Of a stretch of DNA of 64,000 nucleotides, positions 17,951 through 62,125 are shown piece after piece (the first letter of the stretch is position 1; every line of letters starts with the position of its first letter). The notes under the pieces are model-generated. The model searched no databases. It saw nothing but the letters and a program-made list of their open reading frames with translations, and was not told where the DNA came from. This stretch comes from Diplonema papillatum. Taxonomy: Eukaryota. The stretch spans positions 141,284 to 205,283 of the forward strand of contig JAPJBO010000372.1 in assembly GCA_030068145.1 (NCBI GenBank), read 5' to 3'. Both the position numbers and the translations under genes were made by a program.

Positions 17951-18015
17951 TTTACCAGCAGTACTAATTAAGAATACAGGTTGACCCAGGAAAACGGAAA
18001 CTAAGAGAGGGGAAA

Positions 18016-19893: not shown

Positions 19894-19987
19894 AGTCGCC
19901 ATCTCCACCTCTTGGTTCTTTTGCATTTTTCCACCTTATATTCTGCGTTTTCCTGGTAAGCACTGTGTTCTCAAAAGCGGGTGAAGC

Positions 19988-20460
19988 CGGATTCTAGGCA
20001 GGGCGCACTTGCACACCGCACATTCTAAGCGTGTGCCTGCCCACTGCTGGCGCTGCGCACATGGGGCTAACTGTGACCCCCGAGAGCATTCTTCGGCTTC
20101 AAGAGGACCCGCTGGTGGCTATCTACGGCGGAACACAGCCGATCTTGTCGTTTTGAAGTCTGGGTTTCCCGCTGGAGGCCAGAAAGTGTTTGACTAGCTT
20201 GAGTAGTGGCGAGGCCCGAAAATGACCCCATTTTGGGGACTCTCCCCCTCGCGCTCCAGGGGCCTACCTGGGCCTACCTGGGCCCACCTGGGCCTATTCG
20301 TGGGCCTTCAGAGACCCCTTTACCTCGACTCAGCCCGCCAAAAACCGTTTGGGAACCGTTTTGGGCCACACAGGTGGGGGTTCGGGGCCAGTATGGGGTG
20401 ACATCAAAAAAAGTTTTATTAGTGCAAAGGGGGGGGGGGGGGGGGTTTTGGCATCGTACC
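19988..20460. repeat. Right TIR of the long-TIR transposon
   Basis: Inverted match to 17474-17950; contains a G-run at 20429-20445. Confidence 0.6.
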
Positions 20461-23400: not shown

Positions 23401-24189
23401 TGAGGGAAACTATTCTTGAATAGTTACGCCTATTCAAGGCACATGACAAACCCGGGAAACAGGTCTCGGGTGGATAGCGTTACCTCCACTGTTCCGGCCT
23501 TCCTCTCCAACCAAAAATAGCGAACATCAAAAGCAAACAACAAACCACACAAAATACACGTCTCAACACAATAGCTTCAGTTGAACTTATCAAGAGAAAA
23601 GTAAAATGGCCGACTGAAGGGAGAAGAAGATACGAACAACATGGAGCTTCTCCGGAAGAGGAAAGGACCCGGCGCGGCGAAGGCTGTAGGTTGGGGCGGC
23701 CAGTCGCACGCTATTCAGAAGCTGCTGGAAAGAGTCGCCCGCATAACTGGCGATGCACCGATACCTCCCTTGGCACGCACGCAGCTTTTGTACGTGGCAG
23801 AGCTCGTGCACAGCAAACTCGATCTAGCTTGCTCAACTTCGGCACCTGTGTCCATCAAGCTCGTGGTGGAGGCTTTTCACATGATCGAAGAGTACCTTCT
23901 TGAGCTGAACACGTTGTGCGGCTACCCGCAAGAAGCTGACCTCGTCACAGATTTGGCTGCCGCATTCAAAGCAGAGCCTGCGGCTCTCCCTAAAGTCGGG
24001 TTTTTGCGCGATGCTGGAGGCAAGGTATCTTTCGTCCCACCCTTGTGCCAGTGTAGGGGCTGCTTGAATTGAAAAAGCATCGAGCTAGCCTGGTGGTGCC
24101 AACCCTCGTGGGGAGGGAGGCGTATCCCCAAGTTCACGTATTCTGAAAGCGAAATTGGGCCCACTTCTATCGGACTTTGACCTGTTGTG

Positions 24190-24295
24190 TTTGTGTGATT
24201 TGTCGTGTAGGGGTAGACCCGCATGACCTCACGTCCTTTCAACACGTGGTTCGGTAGTTACAGCACTTGGAATCCCTTCTGTTCTTTGTCGGGCA
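24190..24295 (+). repeat. Short dispersed repeat (about 100 bp); other copies at 26040-26075 (+, internally deleted) and 49540-49632 (-)
   Basis: cgtgtaggggtagacccgcatgacctcacgtcctttcaacacgtggttcggtagttacagcacttggaatccc matches the reverse complement of 49540-49632. The copy at 26040 joins cgtgtag directly to ttccagcacttgg, lacking the central 50 bp. Confidence 0.6.
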
Positions 24296-28144: not shown

Positions 28145-29907
28145 GCTTTTACACCCACACACGCCGTGGTCGTGCTTTCGTGACGGGAGGCACCACGTTT
28201 ACACACACGCGCGCACACACATGGGGTAGCAGTCGTCAGCATTGCAGAAGGCTTGGCGACAAGTGACTCGCGCCACTTCCCCGTGCGAGCGAGTCTCGGA
28301 ACAGGACTCAAAACTGTGACCCAGGTAGTGACTGCCGAATGCTTGCACCAAGAGTTTGGAACAGCTAGTCAGGCCAAGCTCATTGCACAGAGAGAGCATG
28401 CCACATCCTCGGGTGAGATGTGCCGCCTGTGTGAAGACACTCAACTGGTGCCCGGGGCCGAAAACCCCGTGCAGCTATCACCGCAAGATGAAAACAGGTG
28501 TCTTGAGCCGAGTGCCGGATGGAGAAGCTGACAGCCTCCCACGCTCTATCCGTTTCCTGAAGAATCCCGCCCCACCCACCGAGTCACAGGACCCAAAAGC
28601 AGCGTGTCGGAAACTCAAAGCTGACTGGTGAAAGTGACAAGTGGGCTATATTTCGATTCAGACGTTACCCACACAGCCCTGAACTTAACACACACACGCA
28701 CAGCAAAAAAGGCCGTCTTACAGAAAAAGAGAAAGACGAACGCTGAAAACATCGCCGATTTGTGGATGAAGGTCCATGCTTCTGACGACGAGCCTGAGTA
28801 CACGACGGAAGGCACACAACCTTTTGTGTTGGGCAGAAGCAGCGCCATAGCCGCAGGTGCAGCCCTCCTGACAAGTGATTCCATCAGTGAAGAATCAGGC
28901 TCAAACCCTGGTGAAGCACTCGATTAAGTAAGCAAATGCGCGGGCTCTTCTCGAACTGAGATAATTATCTCAGCGAGCTCATTCTCCCATGTGGCGCAAA
29001 CGTGTCCTTTGTCACGGCTAGGTTGGAGTCTTTTCAGGCTCACAGCCCATCAGTGGACTCCCTTCCAGCAAGGTAGCTGTTGCGAACTTTGCCAACAAAC
29101 AGTGTCCATTCATTCTGGTCTCTGTTTTCACCCTCAGAGTTTGTTCGTGCGCATAGTGAGAAAGCAAATGCAGTCTTGGCTAGGAATGTCAGTGTTCAAA
29201 TTGAACAACTCGATGTTGAGAAGGCACCTTTCCCATGTGCTGATTCCACAACAGATACAGACCACAACCAGAGCGACTGCACACGGTTAGCACGGGGAAA
29301 TCCGCAACGCCGCGGGAAGGGGAAACCAGTTTAGGTTGTCGTCTAGCAGAACAATTGTCAATATATCTCGCGCAGTGACCTCTTTTCCAACAAAAGGAAA
29401 CCGAATCCAGAAGGCGAACAATGGCGAATCTGACAGTCATCCACTTGAAGACGAACCAGTACACTCATATACTCGTATGCTTTGCTTTAATTAGGGTGTG
29501 TGGAAATTCTAAGCGTGCGTTTGAGTCGCTTTGTGGTGCTCACGCAAGGCCTGCTTTCGCGTCTTCCATTTTCAAAGCGCAGTAGCCTGCCAGCCTGATG
29601 CCAGTCATCTAGACCCCGCCAGCCAGCCAGCCGGTCAAGCCAAAACCGGTCGAAATACAGGCAATAACGCAGCGCCAAAACGGTCAAGGAAGCTACCCCC
29701 TGAGGTGATCCCTTCTGTGTGCTTCCACGGCCGGTTGCTTCATACCTCACGGTACGCCCATAATTGGGAATCATGCAATAAGGAACCAGGTTCTGCGAAG
29801 CAAACCGTGGAAGAATGGCAAGGGCGTGCAGAAATCTTGCGACCACGCACAAAAACAAAGGAAAATAGGACGACAAGCCGCGATTCACCTCAAACGCACA
29901 CATACAG

Positions 29908-32900
29908 GACAACAATGCATCCGCCACCCTTTTGAGAGTCGGGCCGCTCACTTACACGAAGAGCGAACACGAACACGTATGTTTTGAAAGAGATTCTAGT
30001 CATCTTGGTTTAACTCCGTTGTAATTACTGTCCGGGTCTAGTTGGGAGCTGATCATTGGCGGCTTGCGTCGCTCATATAATATATATTATATACGCACCT
30101 TTGACTGACGTCAGACCCACACGCAGAGCACGAAGACGAAGAACAGAACGAGGAAGAATGATCCGGGTCAACCAATTGGCGGCCAAAGAGATACATCTCC
30201 TTCTTCAACTTTTCTGAATAAAAGCAGCAATAGTGTTCCAAACCATTGAACCCTTCACACAGATTCTTTGCGAACCAAAAGCTTTTGTGGTTGTCCCCCC
30301 GAGACACTACTGCATTGTCGAGAATCCTGTGCAGCGAAAAGACGATGGTACTCCGGTTCTCGACAGCGAGGGGTATGCCCAAAATCACCGCTGCATTTCG
30401 CATCTCTCCCCTCGGAAAAATTAAATTCAGGGTAATCGTTATTCAAGCGGAGGTTTCTAGGCTGACACAATTGTCTTTCTCTGGGTCTTTGAAAGGCTAC
30501 CAAAAGCCCATCGCAGATCTCGATTCATTTTGTTGGCCGTCTGCCTCCGGTAACGCAGCTCAGGTACATACCATACACACACTATACACGCATTACCTAA
30601 TGCAGGCAAGCTGTCGTTCAGCTTGGCGACAGCGAGATTCGAATGGATTGCGCACCATTCCCGCTGTACCCTGGCGAACAGCTCAGCAAGGCAGTGCCAC
30701 TTCCACTGCAAGTTTTGCCTCCCAACATGGCCAACCGAGTCAAGGCGACGAGGAACTTTGATGACAAGGTATGCCTGCTGTTTCATGTCAAGCCGAAGTG
30801 CTCCGATTTGTTGCCAGGACTGGCCCCACCGGTTGATATGGTTGCATACAGCGACCCGAACCACACTGCTCCCTCCTGCACCCATCAGTTCCGGGCTTGC
30901 GGGTTTGCGTGGGGGTGCAGTTCCTGCTACCGGTTAGCAGGCTTCTGAACGCGTTCCCGAATTGGTGGTCCCGAGCAGTTGAGGCGAAGTTCAAAGGCTG
31001 GGTTTCGTCCCGACTGACTTCGTACACCCGGGGCTCGCGTATTACTCCGTCTACGCTCTGCAAGCACCTTCCTTTTAAGATGGCTTCGACGCCCGTCTCT
31101 TCGGTTGCAGGAGGTTCTTGGTACACGCCGGCGAGGATGCTTGTTCCGGGCCCTCTTGGCAATGGCCGCGGGTCAAGTCAAAGGATGCAGAAAGTATGCG
31201 GGTCAAAGCGCTTGCACCAAATTTGGGGACGCGAAGAGGCAGTGTCGAAGATACCCAGGGGATGACGGTAGAGCCAGGTACCTGGATACCGTGGAACACG
31301 CAATTAATCTGCCTACGCCTACGCGCAGGCTCGCACAGCTCTCTCCCACAGCCGTCTGACAACGTTGTCGCGCGAAATGGAGCACCTTGCCCCGTCTTCT
31401 CTCTATTTTCCCGCTTTGCGTGTCCCGTATACTCCCGTTTCTCCCCTGTTGGATGGTATTAACAACAGGATTTGTGGTGGAAATCCTCCTTGACCCTCTG
31501 ACAGGGGACGGCTCCAACCCCCCCGACGTTTTTGCATTTCCACACCTCCTGTCGGGGGTTAAATGTACGGCCACTTTTTTGTTGTTGGGTTGGTCAGAAC
31601 ATACGCAAAGCAGGAAGAGTTAACACTCACACCAACAGCTTGCCGACGAGACGGTTGTAAAGAGGATTGCCGGCGATGAGTGGCTGGTTGAGGGCCCGTG
31701 CACGTACTACCCTCACGTGTGCAAGGAAGTCGTGCAGACAGTGAAGGCGAACTTCATCGGGAAGAACGAGGCGTTGAAGCTTCGCGCTGTCAACAAGTTC
31801 GTGGATCGGACGGGGACTGAGCGGAAAGTCGGGAGCGAGTGGCTGTGGGCAGAGTTTGGACCTTACATGCCGTCTGTGGACGAGATGGTGGTCGAGGTTG
31901 TGAAGGCGAACATTCTGTCTGAGATGAAAGCGATCCATGTGCACTGCTTGTACGCGTTCACCGACTGCTTTGGGCAGGAGAGAAGGGCAGGGGACCAGTG
32001 GTTGGTGACAAACAAGGACACCGAGACCTACATTCCGACACCGAACGAGACAGTGTCGAAGGAAGTACCGCTGTGTGTGTTGAACAAGAAGCAGTACTGC
32101 ATTGTGGTTGACCCTTACGACTCCAAGACGAAGATGAACCAGCTGAGCGTGCGGAAGCTTATCAAAGGCCCCAGCCGATTCTTCCTGCACCCTGGAGAGA
32201 AGCTGGAAGGAGGGTGTGCTAAGGACGTGTATGTGATGATGGCCGACGAGGCGCTTCTTCTAGAGGCGAGCGAAACATTCACCGACGAGAACGGTGTTGC
32301 ACGCGAGGCGGGAGACCTGTGGATGATCAACGGGCCGTGCGAGTACATCCCCCCTGTGCAAGTTGTTGTGGTTGAAAAGAGGACAGCCATGGCCATGCAC
32401 GAGTACGAGGGTGTGTACGTGAGAGATCTGAAGACTGGTGTTGTGCGCTCACAGATGGGCCCGTGCAGCTACATGTTGCAGGCTGGGGAGGAGTTGTGGG
32501 AAAAGGAACTGTCGCAGGAGGTGGAAGGCCTGCTGGGCAAGATCACTGAAGGCTCCACCCGAGGCACGTGGAGCACAAAGGCTGGCTCGAGCACGCGAGA
32601 CAGAACGCGAGTCATTGTGTACTCGGTGCCGCACAACTCTGTGTGCCAGATCTTCGACTACAAGACGAAGACATCGCGCTGCATCTGCGGTCCTGACATG
32701 GTCAGTTTGAACCCTGACGAAGAATTCACTGTCATTTCGCTGTCAGGCGGAAAGCCCAAGGTTTGTATTTGTCCACTGTATCATGGGGTCATCAAACGGT
32801 GAAGTGGGTTCTTTCTGTTTGCATGAGGACACGCAGGTGCACATCACAATTGTCGGAATTGCTGAACTCTTGGTCTTCTTGCACTGTGTTGTCAAACATT

Positions 32901-34156
32901 TCGAAGTATGCCAAGTACCATGTATGCACGCAATGCAAATCCCTCAGGTTGCCGGGCGGATCAAGTGTCTTTCGCTGTTCTTGGGACCCGACTTCATGAC
33001 TGACAACATCAAGGTGGAGACAGCGGACCACGCCAGGTTGGAACTGCAGCTATCGTACAGCTGGCGTTTTGCAGTGGACCCGAAAGATAAGACGGCGGTG
33101 CGGAAGGTGTTCAGCGTTCCGGACTTCGTGGGAGACAGCTGCAAGGCGATTGCAAGCAAGATCAGAGGCTGCTGTGCAGGTGTCACATTCGACAACTTCC
33201 ACAAGAACTCATCGTCTATCATTCGATACGCTGTTTTCGGGTCGAAGGATGCGTGGATCTCGGGTGGGCGTCCTCTGTCCGTCGGAGATGTCATCGTGAC
33301 GGCAGACGGGAAGAAGGAGAAGGTGACCAAAATCGACAAGATGGAGGTGACAGCAGATTCTGGACCGGTGGCAGACCCGACGACGCTGGCGACAGCAGAT
33401 GGGAACGAGATCAAGCGGGGCAAGTGGCCGCACGAGGCTTTGCACTTCAACAACGGGTTGGTGATTTCGAACGTCGACATCCAGAGCATGGAACCTGTGG
33501 ACCAGAAGACAAAGGACAGCTTGATCAAGTCGGTGCAGCTTGCCATCCACATCACGACGCAGAGCCAAGAGGCGGCGGCGAAGCACAAGGCTACAGAAGA
33601 GGAGCAAAAGGCACGTGGTGAGCTTGAGTCGCAGCTGATCAAGGACAAGGCAATGTCAGAAAGGGAACGCATGAAGCTTCTTCGACTCAAGGCAGAGTCG
33701 CAGACCATCGAGACGTCGGGGGCCCAACGCGCGGAAGCTCAAGCAGCCGCTGAGGCAGCGCGTGTTGAAGCTAAGTCGCTTGTGGAGCTGGCCAGGATGA
33801 AGGCAGAGGCGCAAAAGATTCAATCCCAGATGGACGTCGATCTCGACAATGCCCGCTGCAGCGAAGAACTGAGACACCAGGAATCGATGAATTCCTTAGA
33901 AGTCGACAAGGCCCAGTTCTTGGCACGTATCGAGGCAGACAAGTTCAAGAAGACGGTCGGATCCATTGGCAAAGACACCATCCAGGCGATCGCTCGTGCA
34001 GGACCCGAGAACCAAGTCAGACTTCTCAAGGCGCTCAACCTGCAAGGCTACATGGTCACAGATGGGTCTTCTCCCATCAACCTGTTCAACGCTGCTCAGG
34101 GCATGACAGGCCAGATGGCAAACCAGGCTAACGCAATCGTTGCTGGCGCTCACTAG
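29908..34156 (+). CDS. MVP: Major vault protein, copy 1; resolved exons 29908-29976, 30263-30372, 30606-30768, 31639-32760, 32948-34156; the 5'-most exon with the ATG is not found
   Basis: Translated exons align along vertebrate MVP: DNNASATLLRVGPLTYTKSEHEH (MVP: VSRVEVGPKTYIRQDNERV), ILCEPKAFVVVPPRHYCIVENPVQRKDDG (MVP: VTVPPRHYCTVANPVSRD), QAVVQLGDSEIRMDCAPFPLYPGEQL (MVP: LEIRLAQDPFPLYPGEVL), then the 374-codon repeat-domain exon (LADETVVKRIAGDEWLVEGPCTY...YSVPHNSV...LSGGKPK) and the shoulder/cap-helix exon (GPDFMTDNIKVETADHARLELQLSY...VQLAIHITTQSQEAAAKHKATEEEQKARGELES...DGSSPINLFNAAQGM, stop tag at 34154-34156). All introns are GT-AG with consistent phases. Confidence 0.9.
30074..30113 (+). 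promoter_or_regulatory. Candidate promoter elements upstream of MVP copy 1: an AT-rich TATA-like block and a perfect CRE-like palindrome TGACGTCA (30106-30113)
   Basis: Direct read: gctcatataatatatattatatacgcacctttgactgacgtcagac, about 150 bp upstream of MVP exon 3 and about 100 bp downstream of exon 2. Position relative to the unidentified first exon is uncertain. Confidence 0.15.
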
Positions 34157-34689
34157 GAATAGAGGCATCTCTGCTGGTCTGAAAGTCTTATCTGACAGAA
34201 CTGATAATGACGAAATGGTACACGCGCGAAGCACTTTCTCTAGCCTCCATTTGTTCCACCCCCTTTTTCTTTTTCTTCCCTATCTTCTAATATTTTTTTC
34301 TCGGCAGGGGAATGCCCTCTGCCAAACTATTTTTACACTCAAAAGCAAAGAAGCCTGCAACACCTGCGTCAAGTCCCCGAGCTTCATCGAATCCTGCACA
34401 ACACCGCCACGGCAACCTCCGGCTTCGCGCTGCTTTTTCTGCTGAAGGTGCAGAGAACATGCCCACACTATGATGATGGGCGTGTGAGAGAACTAGCCAA
34501 GATGTTGCGTTATGTCGATTTTCGGTGTGGCAATTGTAACAACAAACAACGCATTTTTCGAGACTGGAGGTCCTATGAACATGCAATGTGAATAGCCTCT
34601 ATTCGAGCCAACCCGGCTTTTCTTCATGAAAAAAGTGTATTGTTTTTGGAAAGAGCCGGGCAAGCTTTTTTTTTTCCTCGCAGAAGGTA

Positions 34690-34765
34690 TGCGGGTGGCA
34701 GAGTGACCGGGCGCCGGCCTTCAGACCGGTGAGTCCGGGTTCGAACCCCGCCCATGACATTTTTC
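34690..34765 (+). repeat. tRNA-derived SINE-like head (degenerate tRNA with pol III A-box tggcagagtga and B-box gggttcgaacccc, followed by a ttttt run); further copies at 38110-38175 (-) and 41040-41100 (-)
   Basis: gggtggcagagtgaccgggcgccggccttcagaccggtgagtccgggttcgaaccccgcccatgacattttt. I could not fold it into a canonical cloverleaf (acceptor and T stems do not pair), so it is called a tRNA-like repeat rather than a tRNA gene. Confidence 0.5.
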
Positions 34766-34859
34766 CGGTCGAAGATTGTTTTCGAGGTTTGTTGCGTTTC
34801 GGGGTCAAATGTGCCCGAAAATTGCGTTTTTGGCGGAGTTTCTCAGTATCTCGCGGTAT

Positions 34860-35470
34860 TTGGGTCACCCCGGGAAACGGAGTCGGGCGGCCGAGCTTGC
34901 CATCACAGGCCAAACTTGCTACGAGAACCGAACTTTGCTTCACCAGAACTCAGCTTCGTGCGAACTTTGCTTCGTCTGCGCCCGTACCAGAATTTAGCAT
35001 CGCCCGAACTTTGCTTCGCCAGAACTTAACTTCGCCCGAGCGTTGCTTCGCCCGAACTCAGCTGCGCCCGAACTTTGCTTCACCAGAACTTAGCTCCGCC
35101 CGAACTTAGGATCACTCGAACTCATTATCGTCCGAACTGAGCTTCACCAGAACTTAGCTCCGCCCGAACTTTTGCTTCGCCGGGGGGCGGCGGGGGGGGC
35201 GCCCACCCGGGTAGCAGCGCCAAACTTTTCCCGCACTCGGTGGGTCGGGGGGGATCCGGGGGGGGTGTCCCCCCCCGGGTACGAGCACCGACCTTGGCTT
35301 CACCCGGACTTTACACCCTGGCCGAACTTCGCTTCGTGCCCGAACTGTTTTTTAGTACCAGCGCAGCCTGAGGGCTTAGCAACGCCCGAACTAAGCATCA
35401 CTCGAACTTAGCTTCACCAGCATTGCCCGAACTTAGCTTCGCCCGAACTTTACTGTTCCCCGAACTTTAA
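34860..35470. repeat. Minisatellite, unit about 21-22 bp (gcccgaacttagcttcgccagaact and variants), with an embedded G/C-homopolymer block at 35180-35280
   Basis: Tandem units read directly (ccgaactttgcttcaccagaactcagcttcgtgcgaactttgcttcg...). The inverse array is at 37690-37930, with a short piece at 38250-38320. Confidence 0.7.
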
Positions 35471-38400
35471 CTGCTGCCTCCAGTCTCGCCACGCGCCGGC
35501 CTTAGCCGAGCGCACGTACTCAACGTGTTTGTTTTTGTAGTAGCTCACGGCAGCCTTTCCTAGAGTTGAGCACGAGTGGCACGACATGGTTTTGTTCTCT
35601 CGTATCATAGCTAAGAGCAGAAAGAGATCCAGCGGGCATCGCAGTGCTACTGAACAGGAAAATAATCTTTAAGAGCAAGCAATGGAGACAACACGGACAG
35701 ATTGCACCAGAGACAGGAAGTGCAACAAAATCGAAAAGCAACAGACAGTACTGCAATCCCGGTCGTCAGAACACAAAAGAACTCTCGAAGGAAAAATCTC
35801 ATCTTTGCGTACGCAGAGGTGTGAGACCTCCTAAACGTTTTGAATGCTCTCGTGACGCCTACGCCAACGTACCCGAGTCAGTAGAGTGTTGTCCCTGAGG
35901 ATGAGCTGCCGGCCGGGTCAGACGACACCATCTGCCGCAGGTTCAGCAATTGCTGGGCATGCAATGGCGAAAAAATTGAACGGCCCACTCAACGAAGCAA
36001 TGAACGAATCAATAAATAATGGGTCATGATGCAATGTTCTTTCGGAACAGGGGAATGCAGAGGGATGCGCACTCTTCACGAAGAAAGCTGAGCTTTCTCA
36101 CCCAAGCCAACCTCTTTCTCAATACGACGTTTTCCCTCTCACCAATCCTGGGTTCTATTTTTTGCAGACAGCTCTGTGAAGTTGTAGCTTTGCGAGGCCC
36201 CGGCAAGCTTGCAAAGTCAAGCAGGGCTGTACCCCTCTGCCGCATCGTGAACAGTAGGTTTGTTCTGGTTGGTGCCTCTCACCTCTGCCCTTCCCGGATT
36301 TCTCCCTTTATGATGCTTTGTTTTTTTTGTCCCATTCGAGCCAACTCTACCCAGCGGAAGTCGGCAAGGAACTCCATTACATAAGGGCGACCGTAGATTG
36401 CAAAGACGTTGTATAAACTGTGTAAATGATTCCATGATGAGGAGATCAAGTCGTTCTGGCCGAGAAGAAATCTAAGCTGCCGGTCAGAACTAGTGTTGAC
36501 AGTGGTTCAAAAACAGAGAACACATGACGCTTTCATTGCATGTTGTCGCCTCTATTCGCGACAGGTGAAACATCCGCATAGATTCACGGCTTTCAAGATC
36601 TCTGCGCCACCTTGTACTTCAGGTGGAACCGTGCTTTCAAGAGTATGCAAGACCGTGAGAGGAACTGCACACAGCTAAGACCGGGGGGGAAACACGAAAT
36701 GCTGCAGGATCGTGAAAACCCAGGTTTAGTTGTCGTTTCGGAGAACCAGCTGACTCGTTCACTCTGGCCGCTTTGCCAAAACACATCTCATGCAGTGATC
36801 TCTTCTCCCCGCCAACAAGAAAGAGAACAATCAAAACGAAAAATGGCGAATCTGACTGTCATCCACTTGAAGACGAACCAGTACACTCACATACTTGTAT
36901 GTCTCCTCAGTTGAATCGAGCGTGGTAGTCTTTCGATGGACTAGAGACACAGCATCAATACGAGATGCCAACCCGAGGCTGGTTATTATTGAAGGATGTC
37001 ACTTAGCCCGGAGGCCTCCAGGGCTTGGCGCCTCTCGAGGCTGGGGCACTAGGCGAAGCTTTGAGGGCTGAGGGCTAAGGTTGTGCCTGGGCCGAGGCAG
37101 CACAGATCGCCCGGACAAGGCTCGAACATGAAACCAACCGGTCGTTAGGCCATGTTTTCGCATCGAAGACCCCTGTGAGAGCGTGTATCGTGCACGAGGT
37201 TTTTGTTCCGACTGAGCATGCCACCCGCATTATTGTCAGACAGGCCGCCCCAGCCAAACTCCACCTAGTGCATCTCGAATCGGGCGGTGCGATATCACAA
37301 GCATCACCCTACCATAAAAAACCTTGAGTACAGTCATCCGGGCTCCACAACTCCAGCTCTCAGCCCAGGCTGGTCACCTTTAGTTGTCTAGCAGGGTGAA
37401 GTCTTCTGCCGACTCTACCAGTCCCAAAACGATTGGTCTGCAAACCCGCCAGCGCCTGCCACATCCGGAGTGAATCCGTGTTCTCTTACTTTGTTTTGGA
37501 GGGGTTAGTTTAGAAGCGTGATGAGTAGAGCTCTCCCGCATTAGTGCGAAAGGGGAGACTCTTAAGGGGGGGTGCGAAACGGGAGGTCCTTCCATGTGGC
37601 AGATGTCAACTTGCTACCAGCAGAAATTCAACAAAGTACGTGCGCTCGGCTAAAGACCGGCGCGGGGCGAGACTGGAAGCAGCAGTTAAAGTTCGGGAAA
37701 CAGTAAAGTTCGGGCGAAGCTAAGTTCGGGCGATGCTAAGTTCTGGTGAAGCTCAGTTCGCTAAGTTCAGCGATGCTAAGTTCGGGCGAAGCAAAGGTCG
37801 GGCGATTCTGGTGAAGCTCAGTTCGACAATGCTAAGTTCGAGTGATGCTAAGTTCGGGCGAAGCAAAGTTCGGGCGAAGGGGAAGTTCGGGCGAAGCAAA
37901 GTTTGGGCTCTGAGATGCTGAGTTCGGCGTGTGGTAGCGCAAGTTTGGCCTGTGATGGCAAGTTCGGCCCCAGTACCCGGGGGGGGTGACCCCCCCGGAC
38001 CCCCCCCGACTCCGTTTCCCGGGGTGACCCAAGTACCGCGAGATACTGAGAAACTCCGCAAAAAACGCTAATATCGGGCCCCTGGAACGCAACTAACCTC
38101 GAAAACAATCTTCGACCGGAAAAGTGTGATGGGTGGGGTGCGAACCCGGGCCTACCAGCCTAAAGGCCGACGCCCGCTCACTCTGCCACCCCCCCCCCCC
38201 CCCCCCCTTCAAACCCAAGAAACATTTTCCCCCCCGGGTACTGGCGCTAAACTTGCTACCACACGCCGAACTCAGCGTCACCAGAACCCGAACACAACTT
38301 GCTTCGCCCCAACTTTGCTGTGTTTTTCTTGTCGTATAGGATCGAAGATCTTAGAAGATTTATACCTATTCCGACGAGAACTAACACTTGTTCAAAGGTT

Positions 38401-38640
38401 ATTACCCCGTCGCTCCCGAGAAAAACACCGTAATTTTACCCCTCGCTTGAAGAAGAAGTTCGTGGCATACACAAGAGAATCTTTGCATGACCTTTCTACG
38501 TTTGTTACGCACCATCAATCTGGCATCACACACCAGCAAGGACGAGAGCAGCGTATGGAGCAGCGAGACGGGCGAGGAGGAGAGTATCACCAGACAATGC
38601 CTGCATTGGGGCTCGACAAAGAAAGAAAGGGGAAAGACAC

Positions 38641-40760
38641 CATAGATGGCCGTTATATAACGTTATATAACGTTATATAACGTTATTCCCGGAGTTATTT
38701 GTTACCCCCCCCCTAAATCCAGAAAAACCGTTATTGACCGTTATAAAACCGTTATTTGCCATTTTTGGTAAAAATAACGTTATTTGACCGTTATAACGTT
38801 ATATAACGTTATATAACGTTATAATAACGGTATAATAACGTTATATAACGTTATAATAACGTTATATAACGTTATAATAACGTTATATAACGTTATATAA
38901 CGTTATATAACGGTTTTTTACCAATCCATGGGAGGTCACACTGTCCTCCAGATTTTGGTCATTTTTGGCCATTTTTGCCACATTTTCCAGATTTTGGCCA
39001 ATTTTGGTTATTTTTGCCAATTTTTCCAGATTTTGGTCAATGTTGACCAGTTTTGCCGTGTTTTCCAGATTTTGGCCCATTTTGGCCGTTTTTACCGATT
39101 TGGCCAGGATTGGCCATTTTTGCCATGTTTTTCAAAAATTTGGCTATTTTTGCCGATTTTTCCAGGTTTTGGTCATTTTTGGCCAGTTTTGCCATGTTTT
39201 CCAGACTTTGCCCATTTTGGCCGTTTTTGCCGATTTTTCCAGGGTTTTGGTCATTTATGCCCTGCCCCTCACCAGAGCTATTCTTGTCTGAGTTTCTTAA
39301 ACCCGCACAAGCTCGAACAGGCAGTCCGTGCGCGGAAAAAAAAAAAGGTCGAAAGACACCAATCTGTACACCCATTCGGGATCGTCGGAAACACAAAAAC
39401 ACGTGTACCGCCCCACCCGCTTCGATTTCAGCCACACTAGTCTTTCCAAAGGGAATATCGACTATGCCTGCGAAAAGCTCCCCGAAGGTCCAGCCGAAGC
39501 CGAAGGTTCAACCTAAAGCTCAGCCGAAAGCTCAGCCGAAGACCCCAGGTACACAGCGCAAACGGCCTCGCGCCGAAAGTACGGATAGCAACAGCAGCAG
39601 CAGCAGCGCCTCGGTTGCAAAGGCGCGACGCGGAAGGAAGAAGGTGGCGGAAACGCTGCGCGTCGAGGCCTTGTCCCGCGACCTGGCATTGACTGGCCCC
39701 AGCGTTCTCCCTGTCACGAAACCACCAAGTAAGAGCCCGGAACAACGATTCATCGACCGGATCAAGAAAACCGACCCCGGGCTGGCTGGGTTCTACGGGA
39801 AGCGCCAGCTGTGACTGCTCGACTTTGCATGTCTCGTGCTCATCATGCACCCATATTTGGTACTGGGACCTTGTCTGACTGGCATAGTACGCAACGGTCT
39901 GCCGAGTGGACAAGCTTGGACAAGTTGGACTCCAGTGGCCGGATCATGCTGGTGACATCTGCTGCCTCACGAAGGACACTGCAAACGACCGTTACGGGCC
40001 ACCGACTGAGGGACACGCGCCGGAAACCCAAAACTGCAGACATCCACATCCCAAGAACAACATCGCACAGTGAAAGAGTCATGTGAATCCGGAAGGATCG
40101 CGTTTGTCGCGCTTGGGTGGAAGTCCGCAAGAAAATAAGTAAAAGAGAAAAAGCTCTGGGGAGGGGCTATACGGACCCCTGAGGACCGGTTACTACGAAT
40201 TCTTTTCGGACCAGGGTTTGTTTCCGAACAGTTTTTGTGACCGGGATCCAAAAATCGGCAAAAGTCTGGAAAAATTGGCAAAAATGGCCGAAATTGACCA
40301 AAATCTGGAAAATCGGGAAATCTGGAAAAATCGGAAAAAATGGCCGAAATTGACTGATCTGGATAAATCGGCCAGAGTGGCCAAAATCTCAAAATTGTCC
40401 AAAATCTTGAAAAATCGGCAAAAATGGCCGAAATCTGGAAAAATCGGCAAAGATTGCCGAAATCTGGAAAAAATCGGCAAAATGGCCAAAACCTGAAAAA
40501 ATCGGCAAAAGTCTGGAAAAATTGGCTAAGATTGACCAAAATCTGGCAAAAATGGCCAAAATCGGAAAAAATGGCCGAAATGGACCAAAATGAGGAAAAA
40601 ATGACAAAAATCTGGAAACATGGCCAAAATCGGAAAAATTCTAAAAACCGTTATTTGCGTTATTTTTTCCGTTATTTTGCGTTTTCGACCGTTATTTAAC
40701 GTTATATAACGTTATATAACGTTATCACCGTTATAACGTTATATAACGTTATATAACGTT
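38641..40760. repeat. Palindromic satellite domain: outer arrays of the self-complementary 10-mer ACGTTATATA (38641-38920; 40690-40760) and inner arrays of phased T-tract repeats about 10.5 bp apart (T-rich strand 38960-39290; A-rich strand 40230-40650)
   Basis: Left arm: cgttatataacgttatataacg... then ttttggccatttttgccacattttccagattttggccaattttgg.... Right arm is its reverse complement (aaaatcggcaaaaatggccgaaatctggaaaaa... then ...aacgttatataacgttatataacg). The unique centre at 39300-40190 holds the basic ORF below. The track ORFs 38928-39440, 38965-39291, 39967-40539, 40193-40489 and similar are satellite translations. Confidence 0.75.
39464..39814 (+). CDS. Small basic K/P-rich protein (116 aa) with PKxQ repeats, KRPR and RRGRKK AT-hook/NLS-like motifs; a hypothetical linker-histone/HMG-like nuclear protein
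   Basis: ATG at 39464 (ctATGcctgcgaaaagc), stop tga at 39812-39814. Sequence: MPAKSSPKVQPKPKVQPKAQPKAQPKTPGTQRKRPRAESTDSNSSSSSASVAKARRGRKKVAETLRVEALSRDLALTGPSVLPVTKPPSKSPEQRFIDRIKKTDPGLAGFYGKRQL. It sits exactly at the centre of the palindromic satellite. Composition is non-repetitive apart from the (A/V)QPK repeats. Confidence 0.35.
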   Translation: MPAKSSPKVQPKPKVQPKAQPKAQPKTPGTQRKRPRAESTDSNSSSSSASVAKARRGRKKVAETLRVEALSRDLALTGPSVLPVTKPPSKSPEQRFIDRIKKTDPGLAGFYGKRQL

Positions 40761-40779
40761 ATCAACCGGCCATCTATGA

Positions 40780-41235
40780 GACACACTATTCAAACATCAC
40801 CCATGCATTCAAGTCAAGAATTTCAACACCAGGCCCACCCGGGCTCCCCCGACAAACCCGCATGTCAAGTTCGGTATGTGGTGGCAAGGTCGACACCAGT
40901 ACCCAGGGGGGGACCCCCATCCCCGGGAAGTTTGGCACTCGTACCCTCCGGGGGCCGGCGGGGCGACCCAAATACCACGAGATTATGAGAAACTCCGCAA
41001 AGAAACGCAAATTTCGGGCACATTAGACCCCCGAAACGCAACAAACCTCGAAAACAATTTTCGACCGGAAAAGTGTGATGGGCGGGCCGAAGCCAGCTCA
41101 CGTATACTTTTGGGCAGGGGGGAAAAAAGCTAGCTCCGCGCTCGTATCCAGTCCAAAAGCTCGCAACACTAAAAGCCGGGTTGACTCGAATAGAGGCTAT
41201 TCACATTGCATGTTCATAGGACCTCCAGTCTCGAA
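40780..41235 (-). repeat. Third, inverted copy of the SINE-head/minisatellite/X-box module, abutting MVP copy 2
   Basis: 40990-41100 is the reverse complement of 34695-34990 (ctcgaaaacaattttcgaccggaaaagtgtgatgggcggg...). 41165-41232 (aaaagccgggttgactcgaatagaggctattcacattgcatgttcataggacctccagtctcgaaaa) is the reverse complement of 34553-34620, which lies immediately 3' of MVP copy 1. Confidence 0.55.
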
Positions 41236-41255
41236 AAATATTTGGAACAACACAG

Positions 41256-44200
41256 GACAACAATGCATCCGCCACCATTTTGAGAGTCGGGCCTCTCACT
41301 TACACGAAGAGCGAACACGAACACGTATGTTTAGGCTCGTTCGTCTTTCACTGTTGCCCACACGCACCATCGGCAAAACCCCTGCAAGAACGAAATCAAC
41401 GGGGCATCTTCAAGTGTTGTGACTGACTGCCCCACAGTTGGAAAACAAGATCTTGGTTGTTGTCAGACTCCCCCCCTAGGCATACATTCTGGAGGGAGTC
41501 TGACAGCAAGGCAAGACCTTTCTTGCTGTCGTTGGGAAATTTGAAACCTGGGTTTAGCTGACCTCATTATCCTAAAAAAGTGCGCCGTCACTCTTCTTGC
41601 AAACCAACCTCTCCTCACAGATCCTCTGCGAACCGAAAGCTTTTGTGGTTGTCCCTCCGAGACACTATTGCACGGTTGAGAATCCTGTTCAGCGGAAGGA
41701 CGATGGAACTCCGGTTCTCGACAGCGAGGGGTATGCCAAAAGTTACCTGTTGCATCACAGGCCTGCACTTCACAGATTTCCTCATCAGGAAATAACATTC
41801 ATCGATAATTTTAGGTTTCCAGGTTGACCCTCAACGGGTTTCCAACCATTCTTTGCCTGCAGAAAGCTGCGACGGAAGACCAGTTTCTAACATAATGCAG
41901 ATCATCATCAAAAAGTCTCCAAACGGCGAAACGCCTTCCGACGAATCATGCCTGCGGTCTCACTAGGTTGTCCTGTTGCGCAGCGTTCTCTTTTGCTCAG
42001 TTACATACCATACCCAAACCATTTACACACCACCAATGCAGGCAAGCTGTCGTTCAGCTTGGCGACAGCGAGATTCGAATGGATTGTGCACCATTCCCGC
42101 TGTACCCTGGCGAACAGCTCAGCAAGGCAGTGCCACTTCCACTGCAGGTTTTGCCTCCGAACATGGCCAACCGAGTCAGGGCAACGAGGAACTTTGACGA
42201 CAAGGTATGCCTGCTGTTTCACAGCCCGAGACCCGACCCAATAGCTGCGGCCAGCGCTTCGCGGAAGAAATAGGCGTTTTCAGACGTCTACGCTGAAGCT
42301 TTCCGCTCAGTCGTACATGACATCGCTGCACCCTATTTCGTGGTGTTCCGGCGGGGAAAAGAACGTTGGGCCAAGAACCGAAAAGTCGGCTTCCACTACG
42401 ACCTTGAGCTTTCGGTGGGTAGAGGTTCCACGGGGGCCACCGTGGACCCTAAGAACGTGAAACGTATCCCGTATAATGATCCCAAGCGCCGCGTATCAAC
42501 TAGGATACGCGACGGTGGAGAACCTGACGCGACTCCTGTCCAACAAGCGCAACGCTTCAGCGGCGTTGCTGCTCGTCACTGCTGCTTGGGGCGGGGTACT
42601 GCCGAGACACCAGGCCTGCATCACCCGTTGTTGGTTGAAAAGATCCCTCCGTTCTTCCCTCTTTCCTATGTGCTTCCGAACCTTTACGTGTCATACCCTC
42701 ACCAACAGCTTGCCGACGAGACGGTTGTAAAGAGGATTGCCGGCGATGAGTGGCTGGTTGAGGGCCCGTGCACGTACTACCCTCACGTGTGCAAGGAAGT
42801 CGTGCAGACAGTGAAGGCGAACTTCATCGGGAAGAACGAGGCGTTGAAGCTTCGCGCTGTCAACAAGTTCGTGGATCGGACGGGGACTGAGCGGAAAGTC
42901 GGGAGCGAGTGGCTGTGGGCAGAGTTTGGACCTTACATGCCGTCTGTGGACGAGATGGTGGTCGAGGTTGTGAAGGCGAACATTCTGTCTGAGATGAAAG
43001 CGATCCATGTGCACTGCTTGTACGCGTTCACCGACTGCTTTGGGCAGGAGAGAAGGGCAGGGGACCAGTGGTTGGTGACAAACAAGGACACCGAGACCTA
43101 CATTCCGACACCGAACGAGACAGTGTCGAAGGAAGTACCGCTGTGTGTGTTGAACAAGAAGCAGTACTGCATTGTGGTTGACCCTTACGACTCCAAGACG
43201 AAGATGAACCAGCTGAGCGTGCGGAAGCTTATCAAAGGCCCCAGCCGATTCTTCCTGCACCCTGGAGAGAAGCTGGAAGGAGGGTGTGCTAAGGACGTGT
43301 ATGTGATGATGGCCGACGAGGCGCTTCTTCTAGAGGCGAGCGAAACATTCACCGACGAGAACGGTGTTGCACGCGAGGCGGGAGACCTGTGGATGATCAA
43401 CGGGCCGTGCGAGTACATCCCCCCTGTGCAAGTTGTTGTGGTTGAAAAGAGGACAGCCATGGCCATGCACGAGTACGAGGGTGTGTACGTGAGAGATCTG
43501 AAGACTGGTGTTGTGCGCTCACAGATGGGCCCGTGCAGCTACATGTTGCAGGCTGGGGAGGAGTTGTGGGAAAAGGAACTGTCGCAGGAGGTGGAAGGCC
43601 TGCTGGGCAAGATCACTGAAGGCTCCACCCGAGGCACGTGGAGCACAAAGGCTGGCTCGAGCACGCGAGACAGAACGCGAGTCATTGTGTACTCGGTGCC
43701 GCACAACTCTGTGTGCCAGATCTTCGACTACAAGACGAAGACATCGCGCTGCATCTGCGGTCCTGACATGGTCAGTTTGAACCCTGACGAAGAATTCACT
43801 GTCATTTCGCTGTCAGGCGGAAAGCCCAAGGTTTGTATTTGTCCACTGTATCATGGGGTCATCAAACGGTGAAGTGGGTTCTTTCTGTTTGCATGAGGAC
43901 ACGCAGGTGCACATCACAATTGTCGGAATTGCTGAACTCTTGGTCTTCTTGCACTGTGTTGTCAAACATTTCGAAGTATGCCAAGTACCATGTATGCACG
44001 CAATGCAAATCCCTCAGGTTGCCGGGCGGATCAAGTGTCTTTCGCTGTTCTTGGGACCCGACTTCATGACTGACAACATCAAGGTGGAGACAGCGGACCA
44101 CGCCAGGTTGGAACTGCAGCTATCGTACAGCTGGCGTTTTGCAGTGGACCCGAAAGATAAGACGGCGGTGCGGAAGGTGTTCAGCGTTCCGGACTTCGTG

Positions 44201-45226
44201 GGAGACAGCTGCAAGGCGATTGCAAGCAAGATCAGAGGCTGCTGTGCAGGTGTCACATTCGACAACTTCCACAAGAACTCATCGTCTATCATTCGATACG
44301 CTGTTTTCGGGTCGAAGGATGCGTGGATCTCGGGTGGGCGTCCTCTGTCCGTCGGAGATGTCATCGTGACGGCAGACGGGAAGAAGGAGAAGGTGACCAA
44401 AATCGACAAGATGGAGGTGACAGCAGATTCTGGACCGGTGGCAGACCCGACGACGCTGGCGACAGCAGATGGGAACGAGATCAAGCGGGGCAAGTGGCCG
44501 CACGAGGCTTTGCACTTCAACAACGGGTTGGTGATTTCGAACGTCGACATCCAGAGCATGGAACCTGTGGACCAGAAGACAAAGGACAGCTTGATCAAGT
44601 CGGTGCAGCTTGCCATCCACATCACGACGCAGAGCCAAGAGGCGGCGGCGAAGCACAAGGCTACAGAAGAGGAGCAAAAGGCACGTGGTGAGCTTGAGTC
44701 GCAGCTGATCAAGGACAAGGCAATGTCAGAAAGGGAACGCATGAAGCTTCTTCGACTCAAGGCAGAGTCGCAGACCATCGAGACGTCGGGGGCCCAACGC
44801 GCGGAAGCTCAAGCAGCCGCTGAGGCAGCGCGTGTTGAAGCTAAGTCGCTTGTGGAGCTGGCCAGGATGAAGGCAGAGGCGCAAAAGATTCAATCCCAGA
44901 TGGACGTCGATCTCGACAATGCCCGCTGCAGCGAAGAACTGAGACACCAGGAATCGATGAATTCCTTAGAAGTCGACAAGGCCCAGTTCTTGGCACGTAT
45001 CGAGGCAGACAAGTTCAAGAAGACGGTCGGATCCATTGGCAAAGACACCATCCAGGCGATCGCTCGTGCAGGACCCGAGAACCAAGTCAGACTTCTCAAG
45101 GCGCTCAACCTGCAAGGCTACATGGTCACAGATGGGTCTTCTCCCATCAACCTGTTCAACGCTGCTCAGGGCATGACAGGCCAGATGGCAAACCAGGCTA
45201 ACGCAATCGTTGCTGGCGCTCAGTAA
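41256..45226 (+). CDS. MVP: Major vault protein, copy 2 (tandem paralog); exons 41256-41324, 41621-41730, 42042-42204, 42709-43830, 44018-45226
   Basis: Exon structure is identical to copy 1. Exons 2-4 are about 90-97% identical to copy 1 with diverged introns. From 15 bp upstream of the exon-5 acceptor to the stop codon (42694-45221 versus 31624-34151, offset exactly 11070 bp) the two copies are identical at every position I compared, including intron 5. The final codon differs (cag taa versus cac tag; Q versus H) and downstream sequence is unrelated. Track ORF 42340-43872 reads through intron 4 and is not the true CDS. Confidence 0.85.
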
Positions 45227-55560: not shown

Positions 55561-55580
55561 GGGGGACAAGACCCGGAAAC

Positions 55581-61812: not shown

Positions 61813-62125
61813 CTAGAAATGAGCACGTGACCGAAGCAGGTTAGGAGAGTTGGGTTTGGTGTGGTTTCCGCCAAGTTTTCGAACATATTTCGAAAGGGCC
61901 CTTAAGCCCATGAAAATGCACCCCTTGCCTTTTCATGGGCCTGAGGATTCTGTGGGGGACGAAATCTGACCTGCACCTCCTCGTGGTGTCCTCTGGAAAC
62001 GCGCAAGCCGCGGCCAACGCAGGCAGTAACGTAATCATTTATATTTGCCTGGTTGGGGCGTTCTTCGGGGCAGATAGCATTTCATTCTTAAAACAAACAG
62101 GAAATCTAAAAAAAAAACACGCACT

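What the first reader, a model, noticed from the sequence alone, without database searches (positions are those of the whole stretch)
34553..41235. Seven-kb inter-MVP spacer built from three inverted copies of a SINE-head plus minisatellite module (foldback architecture)
The module is an X-box, then a tRNA-like head with A/B boxes and an oligo-T, then a 21-22-bp minisatellite. It occurs once in plus orientation immediately 3' of MVP1 (34553-35520). It occurs twice in minus orientation (37640-38175 and 40780-41235), the second immediately 5' of MVP2. The whole spacer is therefore a nested foldback. Such structures are hotspots for rearrangement and could explain both the tandem duplication and the conversion tract. 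Also notable are the tRNA-like head with pol III boxes but no foldable cloverleaf, and the G/C homopolymer blocks inside the arms.
Basis: seen in the sequence. Interest (0 to 1): 0.6.

Follow-up and report, generated by a model that had tools for sequence, protein, structure and literature searches.

The report
Inverted repeat-element copies between MVP genes
The 7-kb gap between two vault-protein genes of the marine protist Diplonema papillatum holds several decayed, oppositely oriented copies of an unclassified repeat element plus a separate foldback transposon, which is ordinary for a genome that is half repeats and does not explain the gene duplication.

Summary
The inverted copies are real. 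One full module lies at 34553-35520 (+). A 5'-damaged copy lies at 37635-~38240 (-) and a 3'-truncated copy at ~40863-41239 (-). Arm identities are 83-99% (BLAST E 1e-28 to 1e-51).

Corrections:
- The minisatellite period is 16 bp, not 21-22.
- The third copy has lost its A box.
- An A/B-box pair is present in two copies and is unlikely by chance (about 4e-4 per window). There is no tRNA cloverleaf above chance level and no Rfam match.

The SINE label fails:
- About 136 bp upstream of the boxes is part of the repeat.
- There is no 3' tail.
- A T4-5 run follows the head directly.

An independent foldback element sits at 38641-40778. Its arms are tandem-repeat arrays and it has a perfect 6-bp target duplication.

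The organism is Diplonema papillatum (52% repeats, no curated transposon library). Collinear homology with the MVP1 upstream region suggests most of these elements inserted into the MVP2 5' flank after the duplication. Family status elsewhere in the genome could not be tested. Verdict: an uncharacterised repeat-element cluster of low to moderate interest.

The parts
34553..35520 (+). c1: the only full-length copy of the ~0.97-kb module. Order: 5' block, linker with T10, A/B-box head, conserved body, 16-bp minisatellite, G/C block, second minisatellite stretch, 3' end.
   Evidence: Its 5' end is shared with c3 and its 3' end with c2, with unrelated flanks in each case. Flanking hexamers are CAACGC (34547-34552) and CAACGT (35521-35526), a 5/6 match and a possible 6-bp target duplication.
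34553..34621 (+). 69-nt 5' terminal block. It folds as a 19-bp imperfect hairpin and ends in GGCTTTT.
   Evidence: 68/69 identical to 41239-41171. Fold -19.7 kcal/mol, z = -1.8.
34559..34570 (+). 12-nt motif CGAGACTGGAGG. Its exact inverted copy CCTCCAGTCTCG lies at 35477-35488, near the 3' end of c1.
   Evidence: Read. My estimate of the chance of a 12-mer match between two ~50-nt ends is about 1.4e-4. c2 keeps the motif with 1 mismatch (37667-37678).
34689..34758 (+). tRNA-like head of c1: A box at 34696-34706, B box at 34738-34748, T5 at 34760-34764.
   Evidence: A/B pair. (no significant cloverleaf, no Rfam hit).
34765..34890 (+). Conserved body downstream of the head. This is the part kept in all three copies.
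   Evidence: 91% identical to c3 and 85% to c2.
34928..35181 (+). 16-bp minisatellite (GAACTTAGCTTCGCCC), about 14 units. A second, more degenerate stretch lies at about 35290-35477.
   Evidence: TRF periods 16/32/64. Unit listing.
35182..35320 (+). G/C homopolymer block carrying a G7-8 N3 C7-8 GGGTAC palindrome. The block is conserved in c2 (37952-38010) and c3 (40863-40926).
   Evidence: 82% and 74% identity.
37635..38240 (-). c2: a copy with an intact 3' end, minisatellite, G/C block, body and A/B-box head. Its 5' leader is replaced by C19 (38189-38207) and it lacks the 69-nt block.
38246..38315 (+). f4: a module fragment (G/C-block end plus the first minisatellite units). It lies head-to-head with c2, and the junction falls in a C-run.
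   Evidence: 81% identical to 37883-37949 (-) and 81% to 34909-34949 (+).
38641..40778 (.). Independent foldback-type element with termini CATAGATGGCCG.../...CGGCCATCTATG. Each arm carries a palindromic (ATAACGTTAT)n array followed by ~39-bp TTTTGGCCA-type repeats (38641-~39260 and ~40240-40778).
   Evidence: I2, I25; 38790-39242 vs 40766-40322, 74%. Perfect 6-bp direct repeat AGACAC at 38635-38640 and 40779-40784.
39464..39814 (+). 116-aa K/P/S-rich ORF in the centre of the foldback element. No recognisable function.
   Evidence: No Pfam hit. No homologue among 5.8 billion proteins. Not related to the nearby transposase.
40863..41239 (-). c3: a 3'-truncated copy with the 69-nt 5' block, linker, body and G/C block. 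A ~45-nt deletion removes the A box and most of the head.
29904..34152 (+). MVP1 duplication unit (5' flank, N-terminal exons, then the 100% tract 31630-34152). Stop codon at 34154-34156.
   Evidence: Pfam Vault and MVP_shoulder domains. Homology to 41252-45222.
41252..45222 (+). MVP2 duplication unit. Its homology with MVP1 begins 12 bp from the outer end of c3.

Best explanation
The spacer between the two MVP genes is a patch of decayed mobile or dispersed repeat elements in the repeat-rich Diplonema papillatum genome.

It holds three and a half copies of one unclassified, non-autonomous ~1-kb element. That element has discrete ends. From 5' to 3' it consists of a hairpin-forming 69-nt block, a tRNA-derived or tRNA-mimicking A/B-box segment, a conserved body, a 16-bp minisatellite, a G/C palindrome block, and a 3' end carrying an inverted copy of a 12-nt 5' motif.

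The spacer also holds a younger foldback-type TIR element, which inserted with a 6-bp target duplication.

The alternating orientation comes from separate insertions, perhaps with one local rearrangement at a C-run (the c2/f4 junction). Most insertions went into the 5' flank of MVP2 after the MVP duplication. The foldback look is therefore a consequence of repeat accumulation, not the cause of the duplication or of the coding-region homogenisation.

Shown: the copies, their shared ends with unrelated flanks, the A/B boxes, the target duplication of the foldback element, and the collinear homology that brackets the insertions.

Inferred: mobility of the module, the order of events, and any effect on transcripts. 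The inverted arms would form double-stranded RNA if the spacer is transcribed as part of a polycistron.
For: DISCRETE ELEMENT ENDS
- c1 and c3 begin at the same base (ATTTTTCGAG...) with unrelated flanks.
- c1 and c2 end at the same base (...GCACGTACT) with unrelated flanks.
- The ends are better conserved than the interior: 99% and 94% against 74-91%.
- A 12-nt inverted motif lies near both ends, and c1 has a 5/6 flanking hexamer match.

AN INDEPENDENT TRANSPOSON IN THE SAME SPACER
- The foldback element 38641-40778 has a perfect AGACAC target duplication.

ACTIVE-LOOKING DNA TRANSPOSONS IN THE SAME WINDOW

ORGANISM AND GENOME CONTEXT
- Residues 137-625 of that ORF are 100% identical to Diplonema papillatum KAJ9435684.1.
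- The window carries the SL RNA-5S-U2 unit that PMC10161547 describes as particular to this species.
- That genome is 52% repeats, with about 9,800 unclassified dispersed motifs, intergenic regions over 10 kb inside gene clusters, and no curated transposon library.

ORDER OF EVENTS
- 29270-29479 / 36658-36901 and 29904-30785 / 41252-42221 are collinear. They are 424 bp apart in unit 1 and 4350 bp apart in unit 2. The extra DNA is c2, f4, the foldback element and c3.
Against: - No copy of the module was found outside this 7-kb spacer. There is none in the other 57 kb of the window. Two motif scans each of the metagenome and prokaryote-genome collections, plus one of the viral collection, found nothing. 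A translated-ORF search also found nothing. These collections do not hold the D. papillatum genome, so the negative result is weak, but mobility remains unproven.
- The extreme termini are not inverted repeats.
- The c1 target duplication is imperfect (5/6; my estimate of chance is about 0.5% per fixed length, more once alternative lengths are allowed).
- Identity varies strongly along the arms, which could also reflect gene conversion between local copies.
- The upstream homology block 29270-29479 / 36658-36901 is only 67% identical overall (65-bp core at 94%) and could itself be a dispersed repeat.
Confidence: 0.6

Rival explanations
1. One reading: a tRNA-derived SINE family with a minisatellite tail. 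Pol III transcribes it from the A/B boxes and it is retroposed. The copies form a foldback that drove the MVP duplication and conversion.
For: - An A/B-box pair with canonical spacing is present in c1 and c2.
- A 5/6 flanking hexamer match around c1 could be a retroposition target duplication.
- The PMC10161547 supplement reports RepeatMasker SINE-type hits in this genome, scored against a human-derived library.
Against: - 136 bp upstream of the head, including the best-conserved 69-nt block, belongs to the repeat.
- The 3' end has no A-rich or simple tail.
- A T5/T4 run follows the head directly.
- The cloverleaf signal is at chance level.
- The MVP copies are direct repeats, and their homology brackets the module copies as insertions.
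Confidence: 0.08
2. No transposition at all: the copies arose locally by inverted segmental duplication or template switching at the G/C palindromes and homopolymer runs, followed by decay and patchy gene conversion.
For: - All copies lie within 7 kb and there are none elsewhere in the window.
- The c2/f4 head-to-head junction falls in a C-run, and the c2 leader is replaced by C19.
- Identity is mosaic, with 99% next to ~65-75% segments.
Against: - The shared sharp ends have unrelated flanks on both sides.
- There is a hexamer match flanking c1.
- An unrelated, clear transposon with a target duplication sits in the same spacer, which shows the site accumulates insertions.
Confidence: 0.2
3. 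The head of c1 (~34686-34764), or the 69-nt hairpin block, is a functional pol III unit. It could be a vault-type small RNA linked to the MVP genes. It could also be a 'tRNA-like' extragenic promoter of the kind trypanosomatids use for snRNA genes. c2 and c3 would then be dead copies.
For: - A/B boxes, a 5'/3' stem and a T5 terminator give a ~78-nt unit.
- The 69-nt block ends in T4 and is 99% conserved.
- The three substitutions in the central stem between c1 and c2 keep or restore pairing (read).
- tRNA-like A/B-box elements act as promoters in Leishmania (PMC4950102).
- The location between two vault-protein genes is suggestive.
Against: - No Rfam Vault or tRNA match at E<=10.
- Folding z-scores are only -0.8 to -1.8.
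- The unit is embedded in a larger repeat with a minisatellite.
- c3 lost the A box and c2 lost its leader.
- In trypanosomatids the tRNA-like element is divergent from its client gene, whereas here both units read the same way.
Confidence: 0.04
4. Assembly artefact: long-read assembly of a repeat-rich region created spurious inverted joins or homopolymer runs, and perhaps also the 100%-identical MVP copies.
For: [quoted passage not shown]
- The C19 run and the G/C blocks are error-prone sequence.
- The 2523 bp at 100% identity ends abruptly.
Against: - The module copies differ by 1-26%, with indels and different truncations, which collapse or duplication artefacts would not produce.
- The MVP flanks are diverged (66-97%), and the last codon and stop codon differ between the copies (CAC TAG against CAG TAA).
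Confidence: 0.05

Closest known systems
tRNA-derived SINEs (general class; from established knowledge)
   Same: An internal pol III A box and B box with starts 42 nt apart, followed by a tRNA-unrelated body. Size is in the sub-kb to 1-kb range.
   Different: The repeat unit begins 136 bp upstream of the head. It has no 3' A-rich, simple-repeat or LINE-derived tail. A T4-5 run follows the head directly. It has a 12-nt inverted motif near both ends and an internal minisatellite plus a G/C palindrome.
Foldback (FB-type) transposons and long-TIR MITE-like elements whose arms are tandem-repeat arrays (Drosophila FB is the classic case; from established knowledge)
   Same: For 38641-40778: inverted arms of ~540-620 bp built from short tandem repeats, conserved extreme termini, a short non-transposase centre, and a target-site duplication.
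   Different: The arm repeats are a perfect 10-bp palindrome (ATAACGTTAT) followed by ~39-bp units. The target duplication is 6 bp. No partner transposase has been identified.
Trypanosomatid 'tRNA-like' extragenic pol III promoter elements (PMC4950102)
   Same: A euglenozoan sequence with A and B boxes but no functional tRNA fold.
   Different: Those elements sit divergently upstream of an snRNA or 7SL gene. Here no known small-RNA gene is adjacent, and the element is part of a repeated module.
Vault RNA genes (Rfam RF00006)
   Same: A short pol III-type unit with A/B boxes, a terminal stem and a T-run. It lies beside vault-protein genes.
   Different: No covariance-model match. The unit is shorter than typical vault RNAs. 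It is present as decaying copies inside a repeat.
SVA-type composite retroelements (SINE-VNTR-Alu; from memory, as an analogy only)
   Same: A pol III-derived piece joined to a variable tandem-repeat array.
   Different: SVA has a poly(A) tail and LINE-1-type target duplications and is specific to hominids. None of these features is seen here.

Membership tests
tRNA-derived SINE | Internal pol III promoter (A and B boxes) in the head | tested here: met
   c1 34696/34738 and c2 38188/38146, box starts 42 nt apart. About 4e-4 such pairs are expected per window by chance. c3 lost the A box.
tRNA-derived SINE | The element starts at or near the head, because sequence upstream of the transcript start is not copied | tested here: not met
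   c1 and c3 share 34553-34621 (99%) and part of the linker, 136 bp upstream of the tRNA-like segment.
tRNA-derived SINE | A 3' tail: poly(A), a simple repeat or a LINE-derived end | tested here: not met
   c1 and c2 both end in ...GCCGAGCGCACGTACT and then diverge.
tRNA-derived SINE | Head recognisably derived from a tRNA (cloverleaf or a sequence match) | tested here: inconclusive
   ARAGORN at default settings finds none. There is no Rfam tRNA hit at E<=10. Relaxed-threshold hits occur at the rate seen in shuffles. Only the boxes and a type-II-like anticodon arm resemble a tRNA (my reading of the sequence).
tRNA-derived SINE | Many dispersed genomic copies with target duplications | not testable with these tools
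   The D. papillatum genome is not in any searchable collection. All motif and ORF searches returned 0 hits. The c1 flanks match 5/6.
Foldback / long-TIR element (applied to 38641-40778) | Long inverted arms made of tandem subrepeats with matching extreme termini | tested here: met
   (I25: 46 nt at 93%; I2 and I4).
Foldback / long-TIR element (applied to 38641-40778) | Target-site duplication flanking the termini | tested here: met
   AGACAC at 38635-38640 and 40779-40784.
   The flanks CAACGC and ATTTGG do not match. The interior contains sequence collinear with the MVP1 upstream region (36658-36901).
TIR DNA transposon / MITE (applied to module c1) | Terminal inverted repeats at the extreme ends | tested here: not met
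   The 5' end ATTTTTCG... and the reverse complement of the 3' end, AGTACGTG..., do not match. Only a subterminal 12-mer is inverted (34559-34570 / 35477-35488).
tRNA gene | Cloverleaf with a 7-nt anticodon loop that scores above detector thresholds | tested here: not met
Vault RNA | Match to the family model, or association with vault particles | tested here: not met
   No RF00006 match at E<=10. Association with particles is not testable here.

The most novel reading that the evidence does not exclude
The c1 head (about 34686-34764) has A/B boxes, a terminal stem and a T5 terminator. It could be a live pol III gene for a vault-associated or otherwise functional small RNA that is physically linked to the two major-vault-protein genes in a diplonemid. 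The other copies would be pseudogenes carried along by a repeat.
Probability: 0.03. Interest if true: 0.7.

Novelty: new member of a known kind. Interest (0 to 1): 0.25.

Why it matters
Diplonemids are among the most abundant marine protists. Half of the one sequenced genome is unclassified repeat, and no curated euglenozoan transposon library exists.

This locus gives concrete sequences with defined ends that could seed a repeat library:
- a pol III-box-bearing ~1-kb module;
- a foldback element with a 6-bp target duplication;
- nearby, a DDE transposon whose protein is annotated only as hypothetical.

The locus also shows that coding-region homogenisation of tandem paralogues coexists with fast turnover of the spacer, as is known from kinetoplastid gene arrays. 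It does not reveal a new mechanism, and the proposed link between the foldback and the gene duplication is not supported.

Tried and rejected
1. Looking for the family elsewhere.
- Exact-motif scans with CCGGTCGAARATTGTTTTCGAGG in the metagenome, prokaryote-genome and viral collections, and with CGAGACTGGAGGTCCTATGAAC in the metagenome and prokaryote-genome collections, gave 0 hits.
- Translated module ORF 34729-35109 and foldback ORF 39053-39811 against 5.8 billion proteins gave 0 hits.
- These collections lack the D. papillatum genome, so the result is uninformative rather than negative.

2. Fetching more D. papillatum DNA. Exact-protein look-ups of the ORF starting at 18016, of its 489-aa form and of P0122 were not on record.

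3. Relatives. The closest MVP genes are 65-67% identical and come from ENA assembly ERZ25333236 (loci L001 and L002). They share no spacer sequence with the window.

4. Dinoflagellate origin. The DinoSL sequence is absent. This idea was rejected in favour of Diplonema once the spliced-leader sequence and the 100% protein match were found.

5. tRNA, tRNA-Sec and vault RNA identity. Rfam and ARAGORN were negative, and the relaxed-threshold hits are at chance level.

6. The whole spacer as one long-TIR transposon. There is no common target duplication, and the interior is collinear with the MVP1 upstream region.

7. A helitron-like reading (a 3' GC hairpin 7 nt from the end). The 5' end is not TC and the 3' end is not CTRR, so it was rejected on sequence alone.

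8. A relation between the foldback ORF and the nearby transposase, or between the transposon TIR and the module. Only low-complexity or poly-C matches were found.

9. Repeat sequences in the supplementary files of the genome paper. None are listed there.

10. A tRNA-Tyr call from relaxed ARAGORN at 58404 and 59202. Rfam does not support it.

Full report
WHAT THE WINDOW IS

The window is eukaryotic. It carries a U2 snRNA gene and two 5S rRNA genes, and the MVP gene has a canonical GT-AG intron.

It also carries a 39-nt kinetoplastid/diplonemid-type spliced leader, AACCAACGATTTAAAAGCTACAGTTTCTGTACTTTATTG|GT, next to the 5S and U2 genes. That exact leader is listed as a euglenozoan SL in PMC3795323. 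An alternating SL RNA-5S-U2 unit is described as particular to Diplonema papillatum (PMC10161547).

The decisive evidence is a protein match. Residues 137-625 of ORF 18016-19893 are 100% identical to 'hypothetical protein DIPPA_61256/DIPPA_55275 [Diplonema papillatum]' (KAJ9435684.1, KAJ9442633.1).

According to PMC10161547, that genome has these properties:
- It is about 280 Mb and 52% repeats, with about 9,800 unclassified dispersed motifs.
- No curated euglenozoan transposon library exists.
- Genes lie in unidirectional clusters, probably transcribed as polycistrons, with intergenic regions that can exceed 10 kb.
- A full RNAi gene set is present.

THE TWO MVP GENES

Pfam finds Vault and MVP_shoulder domains in 31717-34156.
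- 31630-34152 is 100% identical to 42700-45222 over 2523 bp.
- Upstream, 29904-30785 aligns with 41252-42221 at 66% overall. Within that, 29904-29984 reaches 97.5%, and other blocks reach 87% and 93%. This region includes N-terminal MVP coding sequence, for example ...VVVPPRHYCTVENP... in ORF 41597-41827.
- Identity stops 4 nt before the stop codons. MVP1 ends GCT CAC TAG and MVP2 ends GCT CAG TAA.
- Nothing downstream of the two genes is similar.

CHECK OF THE OBSERVATION

The inverted copies exist and are far beyond chance.
- c1, 34553-35520 (+), is the only complete copy.
- c2, 37635-38191 (-), has weak similarity extending to about 38240. It matches c1 at 85% over head plus body and at 94% over the last 103 bp.
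- c3, about 40863-41239 (-), matches c1 at 68/69 over the first 69 nt and at 91% over the body. It has a ~45-nt deletion that removes the A box, and it lacks the minisatellite and the 3' end.
- A fourth fragment, f4 at 38246-38315 (+), abuts c2 head-to-head.
- No other copy exists in the window.

Three details needed correction.
- The minisatellite unit is 16 bp, GAACTTAGCTTCGCCC, not 21-22 bp.
- The T10 run precedes the head, and a T5/T4 run follows it directly.
- 40780-40862 is not module sequence.

The G/C homopolymer blocks are real. They include a conserved G7-8 N3 C7-8 GGGTAC palindrome.

THE 'tRNA-LIKE HEAD'

The A box (TGGCAGAGTG) and the B box (GGTTCGAACCC in c1, GGTTCGCACCC in c2) start 42 nt apart in c1 and c2. 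Such a pair is expected about 4e-4 times per window by chance.

There is no tRNA, however.
- ARAGORN at default settings finds none in the window.
- Rfam finds no tRNA, tRNA-Sec or Vault match in the spacer even at E<=10.
- The degenerate cloverleaves that ARAGORN reports at relaxed thresholds are as frequent in shuffled sequence as in the real window. At -ps90 there are 3 hits against 1-4 in shuffles; at -ps80 there are 36 against 34-53.
- Folding energies are unremarkable, with z between -0.8 and -1.5.

WHY IT IS NOT A SINE

- The repeat unit starts 136 bp upstream of the tRNA-like segment. Its first 69 nt are the best-conserved part (99% between c1 and c3). They fold into a 19-bp hairpin and end in GGCTTTT.
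- The 3' end shared by c1 and c2 is ...GCCGAGCGCACGTACT, with no tail.
- A T4-5 run sits right after the head.

A pol III retroposon would not copy its upstream flank and would normally end in a tail.

WHAT SPEAKS FOR A DISCRETE, PROBABLY MOBILE ELEMENT

- c1 and c3 share the same first base, with unrelated flanks.
- c1 and c2 share the same last base, with unrelated flanks.
- The 12-mer CGAGACTGGAGG (34559-34570) recurs inverted at 35477-35488. Chance is about 1.4e-4. c2 keeps the motif with one mismatch.
- c1 is flanked by CAACGC and CAACGT, a 5/6 match. This is suggestive only.
- The extreme termini are not inverted repeats, so the element cannot be placed in a transposon superfamily from this locus alone.

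A SECOND, CLEARER ELEMENT

- Its termini are CATAGATGGCCG... and ...CGGCCATCTATG.
- Its arms are built from the perfect 10-bp palindrome ATAACGTTAT in tandem, followed by ~39-bp TTTTGGCCA-type units.
- A perfect 6-bp direct repeat, AGACAC, lies on both sides (38635-38640 and 40779-40784).
- Its centre holds a 116-aa lysine/proline/serine-rich ORF with no Pfam match and no homologue.

ORDER OF EVENTS

The MVP1 upstream sequence 29270-29479 aligns with 36658-36901 (E 1e-25, 65-bp core at 94%). This block is collinear with the 29904 / 41252 block.

The two blocks are 424 bp apart in unit 1 and 4350 bp apart in unit 2. The extra DNA is c2, f4, the foldback element, c3 and about 1.1 kb of unassigned sequence. 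Homology with unit 1 resumes within 12 bp of the outer end of c3.

The simplest reading is that these elements inserted into the 5' flank of MVP2 after the duplication. The duplication is direct, and neither end of the 100% tract lies at a module. The tract pattern is identical coding sequence with diverged or unrelated flanks. From established knowledge, this is the pattern known for tandem gene arrays in kinetoplastids that are homogenised by gene conversion. I therefore find no support for the idea that the foldback produced the duplication or the conversion tract.

CONTEXT FROM THE SAME WINDOW

17464-20470 is a transposon with 409-bp inverted ends (91% identical) and a C15/G17 run just inside each end.

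Its 625-aa protein has no Pfam domain but has 312 homologue clusters. Conserved residues include D211, C213, C216, H281 and D309 (invariant) and D389 (at least 90%).

WHAT COULD NOT BE DONE

The key test is whether the module is a genome-wide family, and it needs the D. papillatum assembly. None of the searchable collections contains that assembly, so all searches returned nothing. These negatives carry little weight.

VERDICT

It is wrong or unsupported on SINE identity and on a causal role in the duplication.

The most likely explanation (confidence about 0.6) is a cluster of decayed copies of an unclassified non-autonomous repeat element, plus a foldback transposon, accumulated in an intergenic spacer of a repeat-rich genome.

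The main rivals are local inverted duplication without mobility (about 0.2), a true SINE (about 0.08), an assembly artefact (about 0.05) and a functional pol III small-RNA gene linked to MVP (about 0.04). The last is the most novel reading not excluded.

Interest is low to moderate. The practical value is as seed sequences for a diplonemid repeat library.

Noticed in passing
[not shown]
   Followed up: yes
window 56270-56330, 56920-56985 (+); 58592-58671, 59390-59469, 60481-60560 (-): Spliced-leader RNA gene copies (SL exon AACCAACGATTTAAAAGCTACAGTTTCTGTACTTTATTG) interleaved with two 5S rRNA genes (56644, 57484) and a U2 gene (57847). CTCCTT microsatellites and ~800-bp tandem units lie at 58.1-60.7 kb. 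This matches the SL-5S-U2 unit reported for Diplonema papillatum.
   Followed up: partly
window 55578-56073 and 61309-61874: About 60 tandem copies of the 8-bp unit CCCGCAAA. The array and its flank are duplicated at 98% identity 5.7 kb downstream.
   Followed up: no
window 53900-55570: A stretch with 68% G+C and strong A-over-T skew (0.64), rich in purine and C homopolymer runs. It lies just upstream of the CCCGCAAA array. Its nature is unknown.
   Followed up: no
window 31630-34152 and 42700-45222: The two MVP coding regions are 100% identical over 2523 bp, intron included. Yet the last sense codon and the stop codon differ (CAC TAG against CAG TAA), and the 3' flanks are unrelated. No 100% MVP match exists in the protein database although other D. 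papillatum proteins are present, so these MVP genes may be unannotated in the public record.
   Followed up: partly
window 56434-56511 (+): A weak, sub-threshold Rfam match to an HDV-like ribozyme model (28 bits against a gathering score of 44, E 0.03), between an SL RNA gene copy and a 5S gene. It may be chance.
   Followed up: no
window 24189-24287 and 49524-49622: A 99-bp inverted match at 91% identity between two distant sites. It is probably another dispersed repeat.
   Followed up: no
window 38170-38235 vs 17480-17525: The C19 run that replaces the 5' leader of c2 is preceded by TGCCA and followed by TT. The C15 run inside the transposon end reads TGCCAAAA-C15-TTTG. The similarity is mostly homopolymer (E 0.001) and may be coincidence.
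   Followed up: partly
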